Source: a virus (lineage: Duplodnaviria; Caudoviricetes). From it: a DNA stretch of 64,000 bases. The DNA lies in IMG/VR virus record IMGVR_UViG_3300020049_007105, positions 35,900 through 99,899 of that record. One strand, given 5' to 3'. The position numbers and the translations under genes are program-made. The notes below the pieces were generated by a model. That model saw nothing but the letters and a program-made list of their open reading frames with translations, ran no database searches and was not told the DNA's origin. This document shows, piece after piece, positions 15,384 to 63,354 of the stretch; position 1 is the stretch's first letter, and each line of letters begins with the position of its first letter.

Positions 15384-15447
15384 TCACACTCTCCCGTTTG
15401 GGAGAAACATATCTGCCGCCTCCCTCCCTCCTCCTAGCGGCACTTGA

Positions 15448-49878: not shown

Positions 49879-49912
49879 ATCTTTCCTCCTGTTTGTTTGC
49901 TTCATTTCTAAG

Positions 49913-49985
49913 CGGGCCTTCCGGGAATCGAACCAGAATCTCCATCCTTAAAAAGGGTGGCGCTCTACCATTGAACTAAAGGCCC
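49913..49985 (-). tRNA. Non-canonical tRNA, anticodon UUU (Lys), 6-bp anticodon stem
   Basis: GGGCCTT/AAGGCCC acceptor; GTTC-AATGGTA-GAGC; CCACCC-TTTTTAA-GGATGG; TCTGG-TTCGATT-CCCGG; no encoded CCA. Confidence 0.75.
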
Positions 49986-53563: not shown

Positions 53564-54885
53564 TTACGAAGAAAAGTGAGCCATGACCACTCGGTCTGGG
53601 TCACTCTTAACGAAACGGACGAGAACTCCCGTAGTAAAAGAATCACCCAGGTATCCATCCCATCCATCAAAGCCAGGTTTGCCTAGGAACTGGATCGCTA
53701 TGAAGCTGTTTATAATGTAGAACTTCCCCCGATACCTAATGAAATCGGTAGGAAAATCATCATCTAAGACATCCTGCCCATAGGCTGAGCAAACCTGCTC
53801 CTGTTCACTGGCAGTTAACTGATTAAAATCCAACAATAGGCGTGGCTGGTTATTTGTGGTGATCTTAACTGTTGCCATGGTTCCTCCAGTAGGTGGCTTC
53901 ATTGTCAGCGAGGCTGGCTAGCTTGAGAGAAGTTTCTTCAGTAGCCGCAGACTTCCCAAAAGGAACGCTGTGCTCAGTGTCGGCCAGAATTTCCTCTACG
54001 TCCAAAACAAACTGCATAGTGAAGCACTGGTACAGGATGTCGAAGTATAGACAGAAATTCCTGACAGGCTCTTCTGGTTTGTCACACTTCTCTCGCAAAT
54101 CCCTAACAAGAGATTCGAGAGACTTGGTTTCTGCTGTGGTGAGCATATTCCCCTCCAAGGGTTGTGGTGTTTATCCAGGTCGTATAGCCCAGACTCTTTC
54201 TCCGTGGTCAATCTGAATCTTACGTCCATTTGAATCGAACGTGTAGCGCAGATGAGTTTCGCTAACAAATACAGCAGGTGTTTCTAAAAGGCGACCGTAT
54301 CTGTTCCGATACAGTACGACCGGCTGGGAAGGCTTGAGGTCCAACTCACGAAAGTGGTTGTCGAAAGTTTGCATCTCGTCCCCTTTGATTCAGTTACGTG
54401 TTATATCGGTCACATAGGGTCCCCCGGCTGAATGTTCTGTCCCTCCAGCTTGAGGCTAATCTCATTCATCTTCACTTCTGTACCGCCGCAATCCTCACAT
54501 ATTAGGCTTGTTTCTCGACGCCAGAACTTGGAAAGCTCTTCCCACTCCTTTAGTTCCGACCATGAGCCACAGTTGTCGCAGGCAAGGGTTACGGTAAAAG
54601 CCTCCGCAAAGTCCGATTCATTTCTGATTACGATATGTGCCACTATCCCCCCTCTTCCCGAACCCACTTAAGGCCCGTGCGGAATGTATTGCCACTGCGG
54701 GTGTACCCAGTGAATTCGTCACCAGAGTATGATGGAAGGTACTCTTCCAGAACTAGGTCAGAGGCTGCGGCCCCAGAAGCACTCGCTTTCTCAGATGCCT
54801 TGTCCATGTCAGCGAAGACACCCAAAATGGAGTCGCCGTCGTAGGGGAATCTTTCGATTAGAATATAGATCAATGGATTATTCAT
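53564..54885 (-). CDS. Five small early genes (53564-53878, 53865-54146, 54171-54374, 54410-54667, 54643-54885)
   Basis: RBS-led or coupled ORFs. Confidence 0.55.
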
Positions 54886-54910
54886 AAAACTTCCTCCTTG
54901 TAGTTGTTAT

Positions 54911-55537
54911 TTAACCGAACGTACAGGCAGTACCCTTCCAGTACAGCCCATCATCCAAAGTGTCGTGACCAGAAACCCAGTAGGCACAATCTTCATCAAC
55001 AGGAAGTTCATCCTCGGGCTCCAAGTCAAGAGCATTGTCAATAGCTGTACCTAGGCCAGACCCATCGCTGTCGTCTGCCCGTGAGAAGCTGTAAAGAGTG
55101 CACCAGGCAGACTCGCCCGCACTTTCCCAGGAAACATCAATACTACTGAAGTCGGCCATTGCTTCATCATTCTCACAGGTCCGAATTTCAACCTTACTGT
55201 TATAGCCTCCCCGGTCCAAAGCAACCAGGCAACCACCATGGGTGTAGAAGACCATGAAGTAAAGCTCATGGGTCAGAAAGGAATCAGTGGTGTTATACCA
55301 AGCGTAATCCAGGTCGGAGTCGCCGTAGATTCCGTAACTCAGCTCCCAGTCGCATTCCTCCAGAAAGCGAAGGAACCTGTCAAAGTCTTCCTTACCTCCA
55401 CCATCGGGCTCACAGAACTTCTCAAAGAGATTGCTAAAAAGCGTCTCATCAGAAGTCCGGTTGGCAATGAACTGCTCAGTATCTCGCTCAATCGTGGGGT
55501 AGCTGTAGTCAATAACCACATCAGTTTCAGTATTCAT
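54911..55537 (-). CDS. Acidic protein, paralogue family member 1
   Basis: C-terminal ELPVDEDCAYWVSGHDTLDDGLYWKG shared with two other genes. Confidence 0.7.
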   Translation of the reverse strand: MNTETDVVIDYSYPTIERDTEQFIANRTSDETLFSNLFEKFCEPDGGGKEDFDRFLRFLEECDWELSYGIYGDSDLDYAWYNTTDSFLTHELYFMVFYTHGGCLVALDRGGYNSKVEIRTCENDEAMADFSSIDVSWESAGESAWCTLYSFSRADDSDGSGLGTAIDNALDLEPEDELPVDEDCAYWVSGHDTLDDGLYWKGTACTFG

Positions 55538-55557
55538 ATTTCCTCCTGTTAGTTTTC

Positions 55558-56355
55558 TTACGGCGCCATCTGAAAGTCGATCAGATGACCTCGGTAGTAT
55601 GGACCATCATCAAGATAGTCATGATTAAGAACCCAGTAAACATGCTGGTCATCATCAGGAAGCTCAGAGTGTTCATCAAACTCTACCTGATTCTTTTCCC
55701 AAGCCTCTGCGAAAAGCTCAGAGGGAGGGTGGTTCCCGTGTTCCCAGTCACCGCCACAGTTGGTAAGTGCGGCGAAGGGCCAAGGATCACCTGACTCACC
55801 TTTCAAGTCAACCAGTGCCTCAATACGATCATGCTCAAAAGGCCCAAGCGCTTCCTCGGAATTGTTCTCAAAGATTCGAAACCCAGAGTAATTCCTGTTG
55901 CGAGGATCGCCACCTCGGTGCATGGAAAGAGCAATGAAGTGTTGATCAACCTCTTCAATATAAAAGGTGGCAAACAGTGCATCGTGCGTAAGCATGTTCT
56001 CATGGTTGTACGTGTTTTCGAACATTGGTTCAACCGAGCTGTCATAGATGTGATAGCTCACGGTCAAACCCAGGTCAGTGCTTAGGTGCTCGAACCACCC
56101 ATCAATACCTCCACGCCAATCATTCAAGTCATTAGCTTCACAAAACTCGCTGAACTTGTCGTCCCACTCCTCGGAGAGGTCTAGAAAGCTGGCCCAGAAC
56201 TTAAAGGCACTGACGGTCAGCTCTTGAAATTGAGCATCAAACGAAACAGGCTCTTCGTTCAGAAAAACCTGAAGCCTTTCCTCGTAGGTATTGGTGGATT
56301 CGCCTAAAGGTTGTCCCAGCATCCAGGCGATAGCTTCTTGCGTTTTGGTAGCCAT
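55558..56355 (-). CDS. Acidic protein, paralogue family member 2
   Basis: NTYN.E..L..D, IALS.H.G.D.R, ELPDDDQHVYWVLNHDYLDDGPYYRG. Confidence 0.7.
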   Translation of the reverse strand: MATKTQEAIAWMLGQPLGESTNTYEERLQVFLNEEPVSFDAQFQELTVSAFKFWASFLDLSEEWDDKFSEFCEANDLNDWRGGIDGWFEHLSTDLGLTVSYHIYDSSVEPMFENTYNHENMLTHDALFATFYIEEVDQHFIALSMHRGGDPRNRNYSGFRIFENNSEEALGPFEHDRIEALVDLKGESGDPWPFAALTNCGGDWEHGNHPPSELFAEAWEKNQVEFDEHSELPDDDQHVYWVLNHDYLDDGPYYRGHLIDFQMAP

Positions 56356-56468
56356 AATTTCCTCCTATTGTATTGATATGTGCTGGACAAGACCTCCGGG
56401 CCAAACCTAGGAGGGAAAGAAAACCCGGAAGTCTTGCACAGCACACACAAAATGTGTGCTGGCTTGTT

Positions 56469-57805
56469 TTATTTACGGAACCGATCAGTAAAGTCTTCAA
56501 CCGGAAAGACAATGTAGTTGTAGTAAAAATTCTCTGCAATAAATCTCAACCGATTACGTGCATCCCAAGCGATCCAAACTAGATCACCACGACTAGGAAT
56601 CTTCATTCTCTACCTCCACTCTTGCTAGTACTGTTTTGGTGTGGCAGCCTTCACAAACAGGTGCCCCGTAACCCTCAACCTCCCAGAGAGAGGACGAGAT
56701 TAGAGGAAAGTCTGAGCAAAGAACATACCGACACTGGTACCATAGTTCGATTTTGTGCATTTCATCTGGCCGGTAAGCGGTCTTACCGGCACTTGTTGAA
56801 TAAGGCATCTATCCTCCAGCTATGTTAGCGTAGTAGTCCCAAATTTGATGCGCCCACAAAAGGACTGCAAGGATTGCGAACACAATCACAATCCAAGTGG
56901 TTCTTTTGTCTAGGCCGGTCCAGCTCATGACACAAACTCCAAGAAGTCGCAACGCATTAGCAGTCCCGTGATTCGGTCAGCAAGGTTTAGTTCTGTGTCG
57001 GCACGGGACCAACCATAGTCTTTGAGGAAGGCGATTGAGATCATATGCTTGATTCCAAAGGAATCTTCAAGCACCTCATACAAACGAATCACCCATTCGA
57101 ACCCACCCTCAAAAGACTCAAGGTTGATAATGAAATTATCCTTGAGGCGATACTCAGCATAGTGGTCATAGCCAGGGTCCTCCGTTGAAGTACTGAGGTG
57201 GTCGGCAATGCCTTTTAGGTTATGTACTTGCAGTGGGTATTCCATAGTTATCCTTCTAGGTATGAGGGACCAATGTCCTTTTTACAGATAGGGCAGAAAT
57301 GGCCACCTGGTGATGTTACCCTCCACCTACCCTCCAGAAAGAAGGTGTAGGAATCCTCTTGGTGGACATCCTCTTGTTGATGACAGGCATCGCAGACAAA
57401 GCGGATTAGAGGTATTGTAGTCATAGCTACTCCTTACTGATTCTCTGGGAGAACAAGGCTTGCACCAAGTGTCTCAAGGTACCGATCCAAAACACTTTCG
57501 TCACACGGATAGTCGGTCCAAAGAGTGAACCAGTTCTGAACCTGAAGGCGGTTGTTATAAAGCTCACCGTCCATCACATCACTAACAATCCTTACGGCAG
57601 GACCGCCAGTAGTGAGCAGAGTAATAACCTGCTGATGAACTTTGATCTCAAGAGGGTCATTGAGAATAGCCTCTCGGGCTTCCTCTTCGGCATCATAGTC
57701 TCGCTCATCGAAAGCTTTATCGAAAGTGTCAACCATCTCCTCAAGTGCAGAAAAGGCATTCTTGCCAATCTCCATAAGGCTCTCGTGTTCTGTTTTGTTT
57801 GTCAT
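56469..57805 (-). CDS. Small early genes (56469-56606, 56593-56808, 56925-57245, a Cys-rich ORF starting ~57424, 57434-57805)
   Basis: RBS-led ORFs; 57434-57805 contains LLTTGGPAVRI. Confidence 0.55.
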
Positions 57806-57843
57806 GCTTCCTCCTAATAGTTTCTTTGTTCAAAGAAGTTGTG

Positions 57844-58722
57844 TCAGTACTCCGGGATTTCAAACTCAACAAGGATGCCGCAAAAGTAGAAGCCGTTCTC
57901 AATCTCAGGGTGATTGTGTACCACATAAACATGCTGGTCGTCAACAGGAAGCGGGTCTTCGGGATTCAACTCTACTGACGCTGCGAAAGCTTCACAGAGC
58001 CTATCATCATTGTCGGTGGGCCTGCTATAACCGTTGTCGAAAGAACACCCTGCATCGTAGGAGGTGGCGTAATCACCGCCTTCTCCATCAATTTCGGTGG
58101 GAGGAGTGTCCACATAGGCTTCGAGTTTGGCGTGATCCAGATAAACCCAGTCCTGGTTATCATCGAAAGCTCGAAAGATTCGAGGCTTCGTATAGCCGCC
58201 CCGAACATCACAGCCACCATGGATCGAGAGAGCAATAAACCCACTCCCTTCAACCTCAAACGCCTGAATCATACACACATCCTGGAGGAGTGACTCTCCA
58301 TTATAAGTATTCACCCATCCGGTGGGGTGGGTATCCAGCTCCAGCATGTCGAGCCAATCGTCCAGGTCTTCAATCCAAGGACTACCTGAATCCTCCTGCT
58401 CGGCCCACTCGTAAAAGGCATCATCAATATCAGGGCAGTACTCCAAACGATCCTTCCAAAAGTGAAAAGTTGATGCAGTAATACTAGACCAGCTAGTATC
58501 TACGGTAATCCTTGGCTGTGCAGTAAAGAACTCCAGGGGGGTTACCTCAGCCTCACCAACCTGTTTCCGATGCTTCTCCCACGCTCGACCATACGCCCCA
58601 CCAGAATCAAGCATATGAGTTCCGGTATTCTCAACCATCATAGCAGCCAACATTTCACCGCTATCAACAGTTGACAGCTCGCTAAAAAGGGTTTCCCAGT
58701 CGATCTCAGTCTTAGTGCTCAT
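57844..58722 (-). CDS. Acidic protein, paralogue family member 3
   Basis: ENTGTHMLDSGGAYGR, NTYNGES, IALSIHGGCDVRGGY, PLPVDDQHVYVVHNH...GFYFCG. Confidence 0.75.
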   Translation of the reverse strand: MSTKTEIDWETLFSELSTVDSGEMLAAMMVENTGTHMLDSGGAYGRAWEKHRKQVGEAEVTPLEFFTAQPRITVDTSWSSITASTFHFWKDRLEYCPDIDDAFYEWAEQEDSGSPWIEDLDDWLDMLELDTHPTGWVNTYNGESLLQDVCMIQAFEVEGSGFIALSIHGGCDVRGGYTKPRIFRAFDDNQDWVYLDHAKLEAYVDTPPTEIDGEGGDYATSYDAGCSFDNGYSRPTDNDDRLCEAFAASVELNPEDPLPVDDQHVYVVHNHPEIENGFYFCGILVEFEIPEY

Positions 58723-58861
58723 ACTTCCTCCTGGTTTTTGCAGTCAACACATTGTTAACAGCACGCCCCGTAAAACCTCTACGGGACCGCTTAGGACCTA
58801 AGCTCTTTTTATACTCGTCCTAACGAGTTACAGTTTTCCTGCCTCCATGTCACCATATGAT

Positions 58862-60257
58862 TCAAGCATAAACAATCTCCTCAACCTCGGGCCACTCATT
58901 ATGCTCTACACACCAGTTATAAGCCCACTCATCAGAATGGTCCAAGGGCTTATGCTCATCCAAACTGAAATAGGCTAAAATAGCCTGGCGATTCAGATGC
59001 TTAAATAGTGCGGGCAGAATGACATTGTGGTAGATTTCAATGATGCCAAAAGCCTTGCGGCGGTACTGGGCGTGAATGATCTCTCGCTGCTCTTTAGCAG
59101 AAATACCATCCTCACACCATCCACACATCAGGTCATAACCACAACCTCCCACATACTTGCCGTGCTCACAATATCCTTCGGCTGGTGGATTATCATCCCA
59201 ACCGTCTACATTCATAACCATGTTAAACCCTCCTAGGTTCTAGCTTCTAATACTGGTTAGCTTCCATGTCTTTCCACATTGTCTCAGCGATACCATACTC
59301 CTCCAGGAAATGTCCGACTCCAGCCTCACCCCAATCATCTCCGATAAAGCCGCCACAACTTTCATTGGTGATCTCTCTACCGTTCTCAGTCTCTACAGTA
59401 ACTGAGACATAGTAAACATCACCAACAATGAGGTTTCGAACAGTTTCGATCAGCCCCTTAATATAGGCGGCTTCATCAAGAAGTTCCTTCTCCTCATACT
59501 CGGCTGGGACAAAGATGCCAATCTCACCCCAATCACTCTGAGAATAACCTGTCCAGGATGCGGAGATAAACTTACCTTCAACACCTCGGACCTCATAAAT
59601 TTTCTCTAGGGCGTCAAAAATATCACCATAGTGCCCACCATGAAGATGTTCCTGAACAAGCTCAGTCAAATACTCGGAGGCAGTCATCTCATTCTCTTTG
59701 ACTTCTTCACGAAAGTCATCAAAGGGATACTCGATCCCATCTAGGATGGCTGCAAGGTCTACAACCTCACCAAAGTCAGGATAAACATCTGAAAGATCGC
59801 CACCTGATTCATAGATGAGCTCACTTTTATGCCAACCGGCTGAGGTCACCAAAAGAACCCAGCCCTTAGGAATGCAACCTAGACCATCCTCCATAGAGTA
59901 ATCCTCATCATGACCTACTTCAACTTCAATATTGTACTTCATTTATTCATCCTCTCCATAGGCATTCATAACTTCAGCACGAGTCCAAGACTCAAACATA
60001 TCAGTCTCTGAACAAAGAACAATAGCGTCATCGCTATCATCCATGGCGTCACCCCAACAAGGGAAACGCATCTGGTTGTTTCGTCGCTCCAACCATCCAT
60101 CTACGGCATCCCCAAGGGTGTAAAACTTCCCTCCAGGGGCAATACTTGGAGAATAATTACCACCACCATTGAGATAGTAACCATAGGACTCTTCGGGGCA
60201 AGTAAAATCATCCTCGTCATACTCGGGAATAACTTCGGCCTCGTCAAAATCAATCAT
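58862..60257 (-). CDS. Three early genes (58862-59221 Cys-rich; 59247-59942 and 59943-60257 very acidic)
   Basis: RBS-led or abutting ORFs. Confidence 0.6.
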
Positions 60258-60266
60258 TATGTTCTC

Positions 60267-60650
60267 CTAGAATTCAGAGATGACATAAACGCCATCTTCG
60301 GTCTCATAAAAGGTGAAGTTTCTGGCATCCGCAACAAAGGTCTTCCAGTCGAAGTCCCAGTAACGCTCATAGGGTGACTCAGAAAGAAAGTCAGCCATTC
60401 CTAGGGCGTCACACATATAGTCAGCCCAAGCTTTAAGGCTTGAGTGCTCTTGGATTGAAACATTCTCAAATTCACTCATGATGTCATCGGCAGTCTCACT
60501 ACGTGAGAACCCTCGCCAATTCAAGAACACCAAAAAGGCTGTTCCTGTATCATCCAGGAAATCAACAAGCTCTTCGTCTTTAAAAAACTCGGGGTAATCC
60601 TTCCGGGCTCGCTCTTCGAGCTTTGCAATTGGGTCTTCAACTTCGTTCAT
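60267..60650 (-). CDS. ArdA-like antirestriction (DNA mimic) C-terminal domain
   Basis: Very acidic; S...WAD...D......Y.DFDW..F..D...F......GVYV pattern of the ArdA C-terminus. Confidence 0.5.
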   Translation of the reverse strand: MNEVEDPIAKLEERARKDYPEFFKDEELVDFLDDTGTAFLVFLNWRGFSRSETADDIMSEFENVSIQEHSSLKAWADYMCDALGMADFLSESPYERYWDFDWKTFVADARNFTFYETEDGVYVISEF

Positions 60651-60683
60651 TTCAAACCTCCTGGTTTGTGTTGCTTAATACCG

Positions 60684-60887
60684 CTAGTTCTGGAACGACC
60701 GAATCCAACCTGCAAGAACATAGGTAGAAATATGTCGAAGTCCAATCCACTCTTGAATTGAGGGGTTCTTGCGGCCCCCAGCATTCTCCTGAGCCCTCCC
60801 AAGGGAGTCAAACACCCCTATGACAGCCCCATCGTTAAAGAGGATGAACTTGCTGCACACTGGGTCATAATAATGGTCGTTGTTCAT
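60684..60887 (-). CDS. Hypothetical protein
   Basis: RBS GAGGAGG. Confidence 0.5.
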   Translation of the reverse strand: MNNDHYYDPVCSKFILFNDGAVIGVFDSLGRAQENAGGRKNPSIQEWIGLRHISTYVLAGWIRSFQN

Positions 60888-60919
60888 TTCATTCCCTCCT
60901 CAGGGTATTCGGTTAAAAG

Positions 60920-60960
60920 TGCTCCGGGCGAGAATCGAACTCGCATAAACCATTCGGAGC
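60920..60960 (-). ncRNA. tRNA minihelix-like element (acceptor stem + T arm only)
   Basis: GCTCCG-AATGGTTTAT-GCGAG-TTCGATT-CTCGC-C-CGGAGC-A. Confidence 0.6.
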
Positions 60961-60996
60961 GACCAGGCACTTTTAAAGTGTGCCTAAACTTTTATT

Positions 60997-61287
60997 TCAG
61001 ATCAACCTCCGCAGCTTCAGCGAGAAATACCACTCGCATCCATCAATCTCATTGTTCTGGTCATAGTCATCAATCAGACCATTACCAAACTGCTTGCGGA
61101 TTCTAGGTGGAGCCCAACCGTTACCGTCACGCTTCCAGTTAAACCCTGGTTCATCCTCATAGGCAACCTGGGTATCAACTGTCGCAACAGTTTTATTGGG
61201 ATCGCACACTGGTTTCTTTGGTGATGCAGAAACACATCCTACAAGTGGCAAAAGGGCCATGACAACAATCATTGCAAGTTTCTTCAC
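60997..61287 (-). CDS. Lipoprotein
   Basis: Signal peptide ending LVGC. Confidence 0.7.
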   Translation of the reverse strand: MKKLAMIVVMALLPLVGCVSASPKKPVCDPNKTVATVDTQVAYEDEPGFNWKRDGNGWAPPRIRKQFGNGLIDDYDQNNEIDGCEWYFSLKLRRLI

Positions 61288-62352
61288 TCTTCCTCACATT
61301 CTGCGACTTCAATAATGAAGCCCCATCGGTCTACGGTTAAACCCGTCTCTGTAGAAAAGGATTCCACAAAAACAGTTCCTGGTCCTTCATCACCGGATTC
61401 AATAAGGGTCATGGCTTCATTCTCGGCTTGCTCAAGAGTTGAGTGAATAAGTGTGCTTGAAATGTCGCCATAATCCGTGGATAGGCGAACATTGTATGCG
61501 AGATCATCCATTGCGGTTCTCCTTGCTAGTAGAAGTGGGGCGCAATGCAATCACTGCAATCAGTAAAAGCATCACCAAGCAGATAATCAGAGAGATAGAC
61601 ATTTCAGGAAACCTCCTGCATCTCTTCAAAAGCAAAGTTCGCCCATGCACGCTTTTCAGCAGCACGATTTCGTGATGGACGGCGACGGGCAAGCTCATCA
61701 TCAACATCATTCTCAGCCGGATTAAAGGCGAGGGGCTTAACAGACTTCAGGTGTGCAATCATTACAAATCCTCCTAGGATTTAGTTATTGGTGAGAATGA
61801 ATCGGGCTTCAGCAAAGACACTGGAAAGATTCCCAGCATAAACGTCGAAGCGATTGATGCGACTATAAGCAGCATAAACCTGCGTATAGGTGCTGTTGGT
61901 GTAACCCAGGTCCTTCAAGATTCTCCTCAACTCCGTCTTCACAGAATTGAAAAGGCGAACACATGAAGCATTGCGGGCATTCTCTGCGTCATAAAGACGG
62001 GCGGTACTTTCTGCCTTTGTGAGAAGTTCGGTTGCAGTCATTTCAAAACCTGAATAGGTGTGAAATCAAAGCCGGTCCAGTTCCACAAAATCCAATCCAA
62101 TTCTTCCAGCTTGGCAGTTTCGTAACACTCTTCCTGGACACGGATAGAAAAGCTAGAGCAGGCAACCCAGTCTTCGTCCGAAACCCAGAACACATTTCCA
62201 TCTTCATAAGCAATGACATAAAGATGAATTTCATCATCTTCGTTGTAGCCCTTGGACAGGATGCCCTCAAAAAGGATGTAACCATACCCTCCCGGATTAC
62301 CTTCCTCGTTGCGAATCAACGCACGGGCTTTAGTCTTCTCAATTTCGTTCAT
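61284..62352 (-). CDS. Small early genes (61284-61511, two short ORFs to ~61762, 61781-62041, 62038-62352)
   Basis: RBS AAGGAG or TAGGAGG, or coupled starts. Confidence 0.55.
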
Positions 62353-63226: not shown

Positions 63227-63354
63227 TTTTTTCTCCCTTGTTGGTTTGAGAATAAGTTCATATGGACTCTCAAGTTCTGCCATAAAGGTAAACCCTTTAT
63301 AACTTGAGAGCCCGTATGAACTCACTTTCGTGAGTTATTTGTTTTGTCAGACTT

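What the first reader, a model, noticed from the sequence alone, without database searches (positions are those of the whole stretch)
56356..56461. Bistable leader hairpin with an anti-SD loop in the early arm
Seen (- strand): long stem TGTGCTG-tg-CAAGAC-t-TCCGGG / CCCGGA-g-GTCTTG-tc-CAGCACA (56379-56445), whose G-U pairs favour the - strand. Its loop is UUUUCUUUCCCUCCUAGGUUUGG. CCUCCUA can pair with the TAGGAGG RBS of the gene just downstream (start 56355) as a pseudoknot. CCCUCCUAGGUU also matches 12/12 the RBS AACCTAGGAGGG (59228-59239) of gene 58862-59221. A competing hairpin, CAGCACACA-5 nt-TGTGTGCTG on the + strand (56439-56461), uses the same stem arm. Inference: a cis switch or trans sRNA, and the third anti-SD element in the window.
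Basis: partly seen in the sequence, partly recalled or inferred. Interest (0 to 1): 0.75.

Follow-up and report, generated by a model that had tools for sequence, protein, structure and literature searches.

The report
Long intergenic RNA hairpin in phage
A real, very stable 26-27 base-pair RNA hairpin sits between two genes of an uncultured wastewater phage; it most likely marks a cutting or stabilising point in a long early messenger RNA, and the proposed "bistable anti-ribosome-site switch" has only weak support.

Summary
On the - (sense) strand, 56448-56376 folds into 10 bp + one U/C mismatch + 16 bp around a 19-nt pyrimidine-rich loop. Folding energy is -50.2 kcal/mol (z -5.5), against -40.8 (z -2.4) for the + strand. 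All non-Watson-Crick pairs are G.U on the - strand.

The hairpin fills a 113-nt gap between a 45-aa gene and a 265-aa gene in a same-strand gene array. Only one phage species carries it, in two lineages about 95% identical. Their three leader differences all lie in the stem; in lineage 2 they make it a perfect 27 bp.

The competing 9-bp hairpin is real but less stable, by 2-3.6 kcal/mol here and 5.4 in lineage 2, so balance is not conserved. The loop does complement its own SD (7 nt, P about 0.02-0.05) and another RBS (12/12, P about 0.0004-0.005). That target gene, and the 265-aa gene itself, are accessory cassettes, missing in strains with an identical loop.

No Rfam family, promoter or - strand terminator fits. 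A bona fide pistol ribozyme, a tRNA-like minihelix and another long hairpin occupy other gaps of this arm.

Best reading: an RNase III-type processing or stability site (about 0.4). The anti-SD role remains possible (about 0.2). The scan has not noted this hairpin on other DNA.

The parts
56469..56471 (-). Stop codon (UAA) of the upstream 45-aa gene (56469-56606); 7 nt upstream of the small hairpin
56439..56461 (-). Small alternative hairpin hp1: CAGCACACA (56461-56453), loop UUUUG, UGUGUGCUG (56447-56439). Its 3' arm is also the outer 5' arm of the long stem. On the + strand it is terminator-like.
56376..56448 (-). Long hairpin: outer 10 bp, U/C mismatch (56438/56386), inner 16 bp, 19-nt loop. 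Lineage 2 differs at 56441 (C>U) and 56387-56386 (UC>CA), which gives a perfect 27-bp stem.
56403..56421 (-). Pyrimidine-rich apical loop carrying the anti-SD CCUCCUA (56414-56408), the 12-mer CCCUCCUAGGUU (56415-56404) and the palindrome CCUAGG. It is identical in all 20 related contigs aligned.
56353..56375 (-). 8-nt linker CAAUACAA, SD UAGGAGG (56367-56361), 5-nt spacer, then the AUG of the 265-aa gene. In many strains the same leader and SD join directly to the 208-aa paralogue through the 10-nt microhomology AGGAGGAAAU.
59228..59239 (-). RBS AACCUAGGAGGG of accessory gene 58862-59221, 12/12 complementary to the loop. It is present in the window and L010 and absent from L002, L003, L009 and L013.
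58759..58828 (-). Context: pistol self-cleaving ribozyme in the 139-nt leader of the 292-aa paralogue (57844-58722). It occupies the analogous position to the hairpin.

Best explanation
The element is a sense-strand RNA hairpin of 26-27 bp. It punctuates a long same-strand early gene array just before the accessory paralogue genes (265 aa and 208 aa).

The most likely mechanism is cleavage of this double-stranded stem by host RNase III. That would uncouple the upstream small-gene block from the downstream cistron and set the ends, and so the stability and translation, of both products.

After a cut in the stem, the freed 5' arm can refold with the upstream CAGCACACA into the small hairpin hp1. 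This would give the upstream fragment a protective 3' hairpin. The downstream fragment would begin a few nucleotides before its strong SD.

Shown: the structure, its strand, its position, and its retention in all strains.
Inferred: transcription as one RNA, cleavage, and the refolding role of hp1.
For: (1) Helix length. The stem is 10+16 bp with one mismatch in the window and 27 perfect bp in lineage 2. Helix length of about two turns is the primary reactivity determinant of bacterial RNase III substrates (PMC1540722). B. subtilis RNase III behaves similarly (PMC11780869).

(2) RNA-level, sense-strand signal. The six non-Watson-Crick pairs counted in the fold are all G.U on the - strand. z is -5.5 against -2.4 for the + strand. 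Two of the three lineage differences interconvert G-C and G.U, and the third closes the mismatch.

(3) Position. The hairpin fills one of the few gaps over 100 nt in a tightly packed same-strand array. Other large gaps hold known RNA-processing signals: a pistol ribozyme in front of the paralogous 292-aa gene, a tRNA-like minihelix and a tRNA, and another long hairpin at 63227-63354.

(4) It is unlike this phage's own canonical terminators, which have small loops and U-tails. No promoter-like site lies in the leader.

(5) The leader is kept unchanged whether the 265-aa or the 208-aa gene follows it.
Against: - No cleavage data exist. The only RNA runs are low-depth contigs that cannot show ends.
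- The host, and so its RNase III preferences, are unknown. No RNase III gene lies on the 73%-complete contig.
- Only two close lineages exist, with no double compensatory change. The stabilising direction of the three substitutions is significant (P 0.019) only if the window form is ancestral. The reverse direction equals the neutral expectation.
- This model does not explain why the loop carries a 12-nt complement to another RBS.
- The few distant relatives of the gene family sampled show ordinary terminators or short gaps, not long hairpins. The exception is Gordonia phage Engineer.
Confidence: 0.4

Rival explanations
1. Anti-SD regulator. The C/U-rich loop pairs with Shine-Dalgarno regions. 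It could act in cis on UAGGAGG of the next gene when the outer stem is open, or in trans on RBSs of the CCUAGGAGG type. In the trans case the hairpin could act as it stands or after excision, like the C-rich-loop sRNAs of Gram-positive bacteria.
For: - 7-nt complement to its own SD (P 0.02-0.05) and 12/12 complement to the RBS at 59228-59239 (P 0.005 and 0.0004).
- The best predicted duplexes of the loop within the arm are RBS regions. The 12/12 pairing gives about -24 kcal/mol (-24.4, -24.2); the top two RBS duplexes reach -26.0 and -25.5.
- A second hairpin, at 15414-15442, has a loop made of CUCCCUCCCUCCUCCUA.
- Of four sense-strand CCUCCUA words in 64 kb, two lie in intergenic hairpin loops.
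- C-rich loops that bind SD regions are an established mechanism (PMC2790875, PMC6486639).
- With hp1 formed, a linker of about 20 nt would let the loop reach the SD (inference).
Against: - The hp1 conformer is 0.3% of the ensemble, and lineage 2 shifts the balance further by 3.3 kcal/mol.
- The 12/12 target gene is missing in strains with the same loop. The 265-aa gene is also accessory.
- There is no promoter or - strand terminator for a separate sRNA.
- Loop invariance over about 5% divergence carries no information (expected about 1.3 changes).
- CCUCC is not enriched in the arm's sense RNA: 10 found against 8 expected.
Confidence: 0.2
2. Passive structural element with no cleavage. A very stable hairpin would block 3'-to-5' exonucleases for the upstream RNA, or insulate the downstream start from upstream ribosomes and structure.
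For: Stability and position are as above. The strong SD sits 8 nt after the stem. hp1 lies 7 nt after the upstream stop codon, so terminating ribosomes would open it and favour the long stem (inference).
Against: A 27-bp perfect duplex is hard to keep uncut in a cell with RNase III (general knowledge). A much shorter hairpin would suffice for protection against exonucleases.
Confidence: 0.15
3. Transcription stop or pause on the - strand: a U-tract-less terminator or attenuator separating two early units.
For: A stable GC-rich upper stem lies directly after a stop codon. Relatives of the downstream gene family are sometimes preceded by canonical terminators (L029).
Against: There is no U-tract after the stem. 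The 19-nt loop and 27-bp stem are atypical. The phage's own terminators have tetraloop-size loops and U-tails. No promoter-like site follows that could restart transcription.
Confidence: 0.08
4. + strand product. An antisense RNA would end at the terminator-like hairpin 56439-56461 plus U-tract, or this would be a terminator guarding the arm against antisense read-through.
For: The consensus scan calls a + strand terminator: 9-bp stem, 5-nt loop, tail GCTTGTTTTA. It shows weak Rfam resemblance to terminator-bearing sRNAs only.
Against: The + strand fold is 9 kcal/mol weaker, z -2.4. The G.U pairs become A.C mismatches. The lineage-2 change at 56441 puts an A.C mismatch into the + strand terminator stem. 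There is no + strand promoter-like site or gene.
Confidence: 0.07
5. No RNA function: an inverted repeat left by recombination in a hyperplastic gene-cassette region, or a DNA-level protein-binding site.
For: The region is a hot spot of cassette gain and loss. Conservation data are too shallow to prove selection.
Against: The strand-biased G.U pattern holds in all six non-Watson-Crick pairs counted. The cassette junction lies at the RBS microhomology, not at the repeat. The leader has 3 differences in 113 nt, against about 5.5% divergence in the flanks.
Confidence: 0.1

Closest known systems
RNase III processing sites of phage polycistronic mRNAs (T7 R-sites; SP82 early-RNA sites in Bacillus)
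   Same: An intergenic, sense-strand hairpin of at least two helical turns between cistrons of a phage early array. A single mismatch or internal loop lies between an upper and a lower stem in one lineage. A strong polypurine SD lies just 3' of it. Helix-length criterion: PMC1540722. The T7 and SP82 details come from my own knowledge; Hue et al. 1995 is listed as ref. 179 in PMC3997798.
   Different: There is no sequence similarity, and cleavage is untested. The loop is large (19 nt) and carries an anti-SD word. A second small hairpin shares one arm. The host is unknown.
C-rich-loop regulatory RNAs that mask SD sequences (S. aureus Rsa RNAs with UCCC motifs, PMC2790875; actinobacterial 6C sRNA, PMC6486639)
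   Same: An unpaired C/U-rich loop (UUUCCCUCCU) on a stable stem, complementary to purine-rich RBSs.
   Different: This is not a stand-alone gene with its own promoter and terminator. There is no Rfam match. The best target is an accessory gene.
Pistol self-cleaving ribozyme (RF02679)
   Same: It occupies the analogous leader position in front of a paralogous gene in the same arm, and it involves a hairpin loop that could pair with downstream sequence.
   Different: No pistol or other ribozyme model matches the hairpin, even at E up to 10. The true pistol lies at 58759-58828.
Bistable leaders and attenuators (three-segment 1:2 / 2:3 alternatives)
   Same: One segment (UGUGUGCUG) can pair with either of two copies of CAGCACA.
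   Different: The two folds are not balanced, and lineage 2 unbalances them further. Neither fold hides the SD or makes a terminator on the sense strand.

Membership tests
Bacterial RNase III substrate / phage intercistronic processing site | Double-stranded helix of about two helical turns (about 20 bp or more) | tested here: met
   10 + 16 bp with one mismatch in the window; 27 contiguous bp in lineage 2. Criterion from PMC1540722.
Bacterial RNase III substrate / phage intercistronic processing site | Lies on the transcribed strand between cistrons of one transcript | tested here: inconclusive
   It is on the sense strand of a same-strand gene array, in a 113-nt gap. Co-transcription is not shown: the RNA contigs are low-depth and do not cover 56379-56633.
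Bacterial RNase III substrate / phage intercistronic processing site | Staggered cleavage of the stem (2-nt 3' overhangs) that depends on RNase III | not testable with these tools
   This needs in vitro cleavage or end-mapping in rnc+ and rnc- hosts.
Bacterial RNase III substrate / phage intercistronic processing site | No antideterminant base pairs in the proximal and distal boxes | not tested
   The host is unknown, and the boxes are defined relative to an unmapped cleavage site.
Cis anti-SD translational switch (bistable leader) | Anti-SD segment complementary to the gene's own SD | tested here: met
   CCUCCUA against UAGGAGG, 7 nt; P 0.02-0.05.
Cis anti-SD translational switch (bistable leader) | Two mutually exclusive folds of comparable energy, kept in relatives | tested here: not met
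   The gap is 2.1-3.6 kcal/mol in the window (hp1 0.3% of the ensemble) and 5.4 kcal/mol in lineage 2.
Cis anti-SD translational switch (bistable leader) | SD sequestered in one of the folds | tested here: inconclusive
   The SD is unpaired in nested folds. Only a pseudoknot could mask it. The duplex is -14.1 kcal/mol, but the 8-nt linker against a 27-bp stem makes it strained (inference). No pseudoknot-aware tool was available.
Trans-acting C-rich-loop sRNA | Independent transcription unit (promoter and terminator) | tested here: not met
   There is no promoter-like site and no - strand terminator in 54000-61000 near the element. This was a consensus scan only.
Trans-acting C-rich-loop sRNA | Target site conserved together with the regulator | tested here: not met
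   The 12-nt target RBS is absent from L002, L003, L009 and L013, where the loop is identical.
Intrinsic terminator (- strand) | Short GC-rich stem, small loop, U-tract directly after | tested here: not met
   27-bp stem, 19-nt loop, followed by CAAUACAA.
Known self-cleaving ribozyme or other Rfam family | Match to a covariance model | tested here: not met
   Only chance-level hits (E 0.5-7) to unrelated families over 56200-56650.

The most novel reading that the evidence does not exclude
The early arm would be a 'punctuated' polycistronic RNA. Interchangeable processing signals separate its accessory gene cassettes: a pistol ribozyme, a tRNA-like minihelix and RNase III-type hairpins. Cutting this hairpin would release an apical stem-loop of about 50 nt, whose exposed CCCUCCUAGG loop then masks CCUAGGAGG-type ribosome sites of other early cassettes. 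That would be a processing-gated anti-SD RNA. It would also give the pistol ribozyme a concrete biological role as an mRNA punctuation mark.
Probability: 0.1. Interest if true: 0.65.

Novelty: new member of a known kind. Interest (0 to 1): 0.3.

Why it matters
Taken alone, a long intercistronic hairpin in a phage is ordinary. T7-type RNase III sites have been known for decades.

The context gives it some value. In one short, same-strand arm of accessory genes, the large gaps hold a bona fide pistol ribozyme, a tRNA-like minihelix, a tRNA and two long hairpins. The ribozyme and this hairpin sit in front of paralogous genes.

If the hairpin is indeed cut, the locus becomes a natural side-by-side comparison of enzyme-dependent and self-cleaving mRNA punctuation. 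That bears on the open question of what pistol-class ribozymes do in phages.

The recurring CCCUCCU hairpin loops (here and at 15414-15442) are a cheap, testable lead for phage-encoded anti-SD regulation.

Tried and rejected
Homologue searches, all empty or same species only:
- Protein-guided and pattern scans of IMG/VR found nothing. Two stem-pattern hits were chance matches inside coding regions.
- JGI metagenomes, GTDB genomes and INPHARED phages by blastn gave nothing.
- The 265-aa and 208-aa proteins have no relatives beyond their own 90% clusters.

Rfam gave no family for the hairpin.

Idea that the gene family is generally 'ribozyme-associated' or preceded by long hairpins:
- The 292-aa protein has 1821 cluster representatives.
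- Seven sampled loci (L027-L030, L032, L033, L035) have no Rfam ribozyme. Their leaders are short, or ordinary terminators.
- Only Gordonia phage Engineer shows a long hairpin.
- The idea is rejected as a general rule.

RNA evidence. Metatranscriptome contigs X19 and X20 have a depth of 3-6. None covers 56379-56633, and one ends at 56378. Contigs cannot show ends, and both runs come from one study, so no conclusion can be drawn.

Covariation test. Three random substitutions stabilise the fold as much as observed in 1.9% of trials. The test depends on direction, so it is not counted as proof.

Other ideas examined and dropped:
- A small element with target-site duplication, since CAGCACA flanks the unit: the ends are not inverted repeats.
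- A leader peptide: there is no SD-preceded ORF.
- A phage-encoded RNase III: none on the contig.
- Function of the paralogues: Pfam, PHROGs and the ESM Atlas gave nothing usable.

Full report
**Setting**

The window is part of a 99.9-kb IMG/VR virus contig, 73% complete. The same phage species is found in wastewater, activated-sludge, digester and sediment samples from at least 10 studies. From about 48.6 kb to 64 kb, all genes lie on the - strand. They are tightly packed, and most have strong AGGAGG-type Shine-Dalgarno sequences. None of the nine neighbouring proteins tested has a Pfam family.

The gene after the element (265 aa, 55558-56355) is a paralogue of the 292-aa gene (57844-58722) and of the 208-aa gene (54911-55537). 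The 292-aa protein belongs to a large phage family of unknown function: phrog_11344, with 1821 cluster representatives and relatives in Gordonia and Mycobacterium phages.

**Observation**

The structure is in fact better than described.

- On the - strand, GUGUGUGCUG (56448-56439) pairs with CAGCACAUAU (56385-56376).
- After a single U/C mismatch, a 16-nt run (56437-56422) pairs without interruption with 56402-56387.
The loop is 19 nt.
- The 136-nt region folds at -50.2 kcal/mol with z = -5.5. The + strand gives -40.8 and z = -2.4.
- The six non-Watson-Crick pairs counted in the fold are all G.U on the - strand; none is of the A.C type. That is what selection on a sense-strand RNA predicts, not a decaying DNA palindrome.

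In a 100-nt sliding fold of the whole contig, this is one of the three most stable spots of the - strand arm.

**Relatives**

No diverged homologue could be found in IMG/VR, JGI metagenomes, GTDB genomes or GenBank phages. Exact-protein look-ups retrieved about 20 contigs of the same species, in two lineages about 94.5% identical in the flanks.

Lineage 1 leaders are identical to the window. Lineage 2 differs at three positions, all in the stem:

- 56441, C to U (C-G becomes U.G)
- 56387, U to C (G.U becomes G-C)
- 56386, C to A (the U/C mismatch becomes U-A)

This gives a perfect 27-bp helix and -4 kcal/mol. The result is consistent with a selected RNA helix on the - strand, but it is not proof. 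There is no double compensatory change. The permutation test (P 0.019) holds only if the window form is ancestral. The loop is invariant, which over 5% divergence says nothing.

**Bistability**

The small hairpin hp1 (CAGCACACA / UGUGUGCUG, 9-10 bp) is real. It forms first in a 5'-to-3' folding series. Once the 3' arm is present the long stem wins, by 2.1 kcal/mol locally and 3.6 in the 136-nt context, and hp1 holds 0.3% of the ensemble. In lineage 2 the gap grows to 5.4 kcal/mol, because two substitutions add pairs to the long stem only. A switch that needs balanced states would not tolerate that. Neither fold hides the SD or creates a sense-strand terminator.

**Anti-SD loop**

The complementarity is real and somewhat beyond chance.

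| Pairing | Length | P (shuffled loops) | P (random arm 23-mers) |
|---|---|---|---|
| Own SD | 7 nt | 0.046 | 0.023 |
| RBS of gene 58862-59221 | 12 nt | 0.005 | 0.0004 |

The loop's best predicted duplexes in the arm are RBS regions. A second hairpin loop made almost entirely of CUCCC/CCUCC lies after the tail gene at 15414-15442.

Against a specific role:

- The 12/12 target gene is an accessory cassette, absent from L002, L003, L009 and L013, which keep the same loop.
- The 265-aa gene is also accessory. In many contigs, and in the dominant strain of two runs, the leader and SD join directly to the 208-aa gene through the 10-nt microhomology AGGAGGAAAU.
- The cis pseudoknot would have to bridge a 27-bp helix (about 75 Angstrom) with an 8-nt linker. 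It is plausible only in the rare hp1 conformer (inference).
- No promoter or sense-strand terminator defines an sRNA.

**What it most likely is**

A 26-27-bp duplex exceeds the two helical turns that define bacterial RNase III substrates (PMC1540722; PMC11780869). It sits where phage RNase III sites sit, between cistrons of an early array, followed closely by a strong SD.

The other large gaps of the same arm hold recognised RNA-processing signals:

- A pistol ribozyme lies at 58759-58828 (58.3 bits against a gathering score of 34.5). Its pseudoknot shows a true compensatory A-U to G-C change between the two lineages.
- A tRNA-like minihelix with a canonical GUUCGAUUC T-loop lies at 60913-60976.
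- tRNA-Lys lies at 49912-49985.
- Another long hairpin lies at 63227-63354.

The pistol ribozyme and this hairpin occupy the same position in front of paralogous genes. I therefore read the hairpin as the enzyme-dependent counterpart of that punctuation. RNase III would cut the stem. The upstream RNA would refold its freed arm into hp1 as a 3' cap, which explains why a third copy of CAGCACA is kept. The downstream RNA would start just before its SD. This is inference, and I put it at about 0.4.

The anti-SD role (about 0.2) is compatible with it and could be layered on top. Passive stabiliser, sense-strand terminator, + strand product and no function share the rest.

**Comparison and novelty**

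It works like T7 or SP82-type intercistronic RNase III sites, but membership cannot be claimed without cleavage data. It fails two of the three defining features tested for a bistable anti-SD leader, and it fails both tests for a stand-alone C-rich-loop sRNA. It matches no Rfam family.

I rate it a new member of a known kind, of modest interest in itself. The notable parts are the neighbourhood (the pistol ribozyme and other punctuation marks in an accessory-gene arm) and the recurrence of CCCUCCU loops.

Noticed in passing
window 58759-58828 (-): Bona fide pistol self-cleaving ribozyme (RF02679, 58.3 bits, E 1.9e-10) in the 139-nt leader of the 292-aa paralogue. Lineage 2 (L009) carries a compensatory change in the pseudoknot (P1-loop A>G with partner U>C), evidence that it is under selection.
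   Followed up: partly
window 55538-56356 (joint 55537>56357): The 265-aa gene is an accessory cassette. Two runs and contigs L017-L023 lack exactly 819 nt, so the hairpin leader joins to the 208-aa paralogue through the 10-nt RBS microhomology AGGAGGAAAU.
   Followed up: yes
window 58862-59221 (joint 58882>59247): The 119-aa gene that carries the 12/12 RBS is also a variable cassette. It is absent in L009, replaced by 109-aa and 125/126-aa genes in L002, L003 and L013, and present together with them in L010.
   Followed up: partly
window 63227-63354 (-): Another very long irregular hairpin (about 34 bp, -44 kcal/mol) fills the 128-nt gap before the 280-aa gene. It folds equally well on both strands. 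It is a possible second processing site.
   Followed up: no
window 60913-60976 (-): tRNA-like minihelix (acceptor-like stem plus a T arm with GUUCGAUUC) enclosed by an outer inverted repeat, in a 109-nt gap. ARAGORN does not call it a tRNA.
   Followed up: no
window 15414-15442 (+): A 6-bp hairpin whose 17-nt loop is CUCCCUCCCUCCUCCUA, just upstream of a strong canonical terminator after the tail gene. This is a second exposed anti-SD loop in the same phage.
   Followed up: partly
window 61760-61780 (-): The RBS CCUAGGAGG is embedded in a small self-complementary hairpin (AAAUCCU-AGG-AGGAUUU) in front of a probable start at about 61755. This could be local SD masking.
   Followed up: no
L027:1425-1470 (Gordonia phage Engineer, MT498054.1): The distant homologue of the 292-aa family (gene 181) is also preceded by a long hairpin in an 88-nt gap: a 14-bp perfect core, z -3.8, and no U-tract. 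Other sampled relatives are not.
   Followed up: partly
L028 (Mycobacterium phage Stephig9) and L009:164-562: Members of the 292-aa family lie next to ArdA-like anti-restriction genes. In Stephig9 the neighbour is annotated as such; in L009 there is a weak ArdA Pfam hit nearby. This hints that the acidic paralogues belong to an anti-defence neighbourhood.
   Followed up: no
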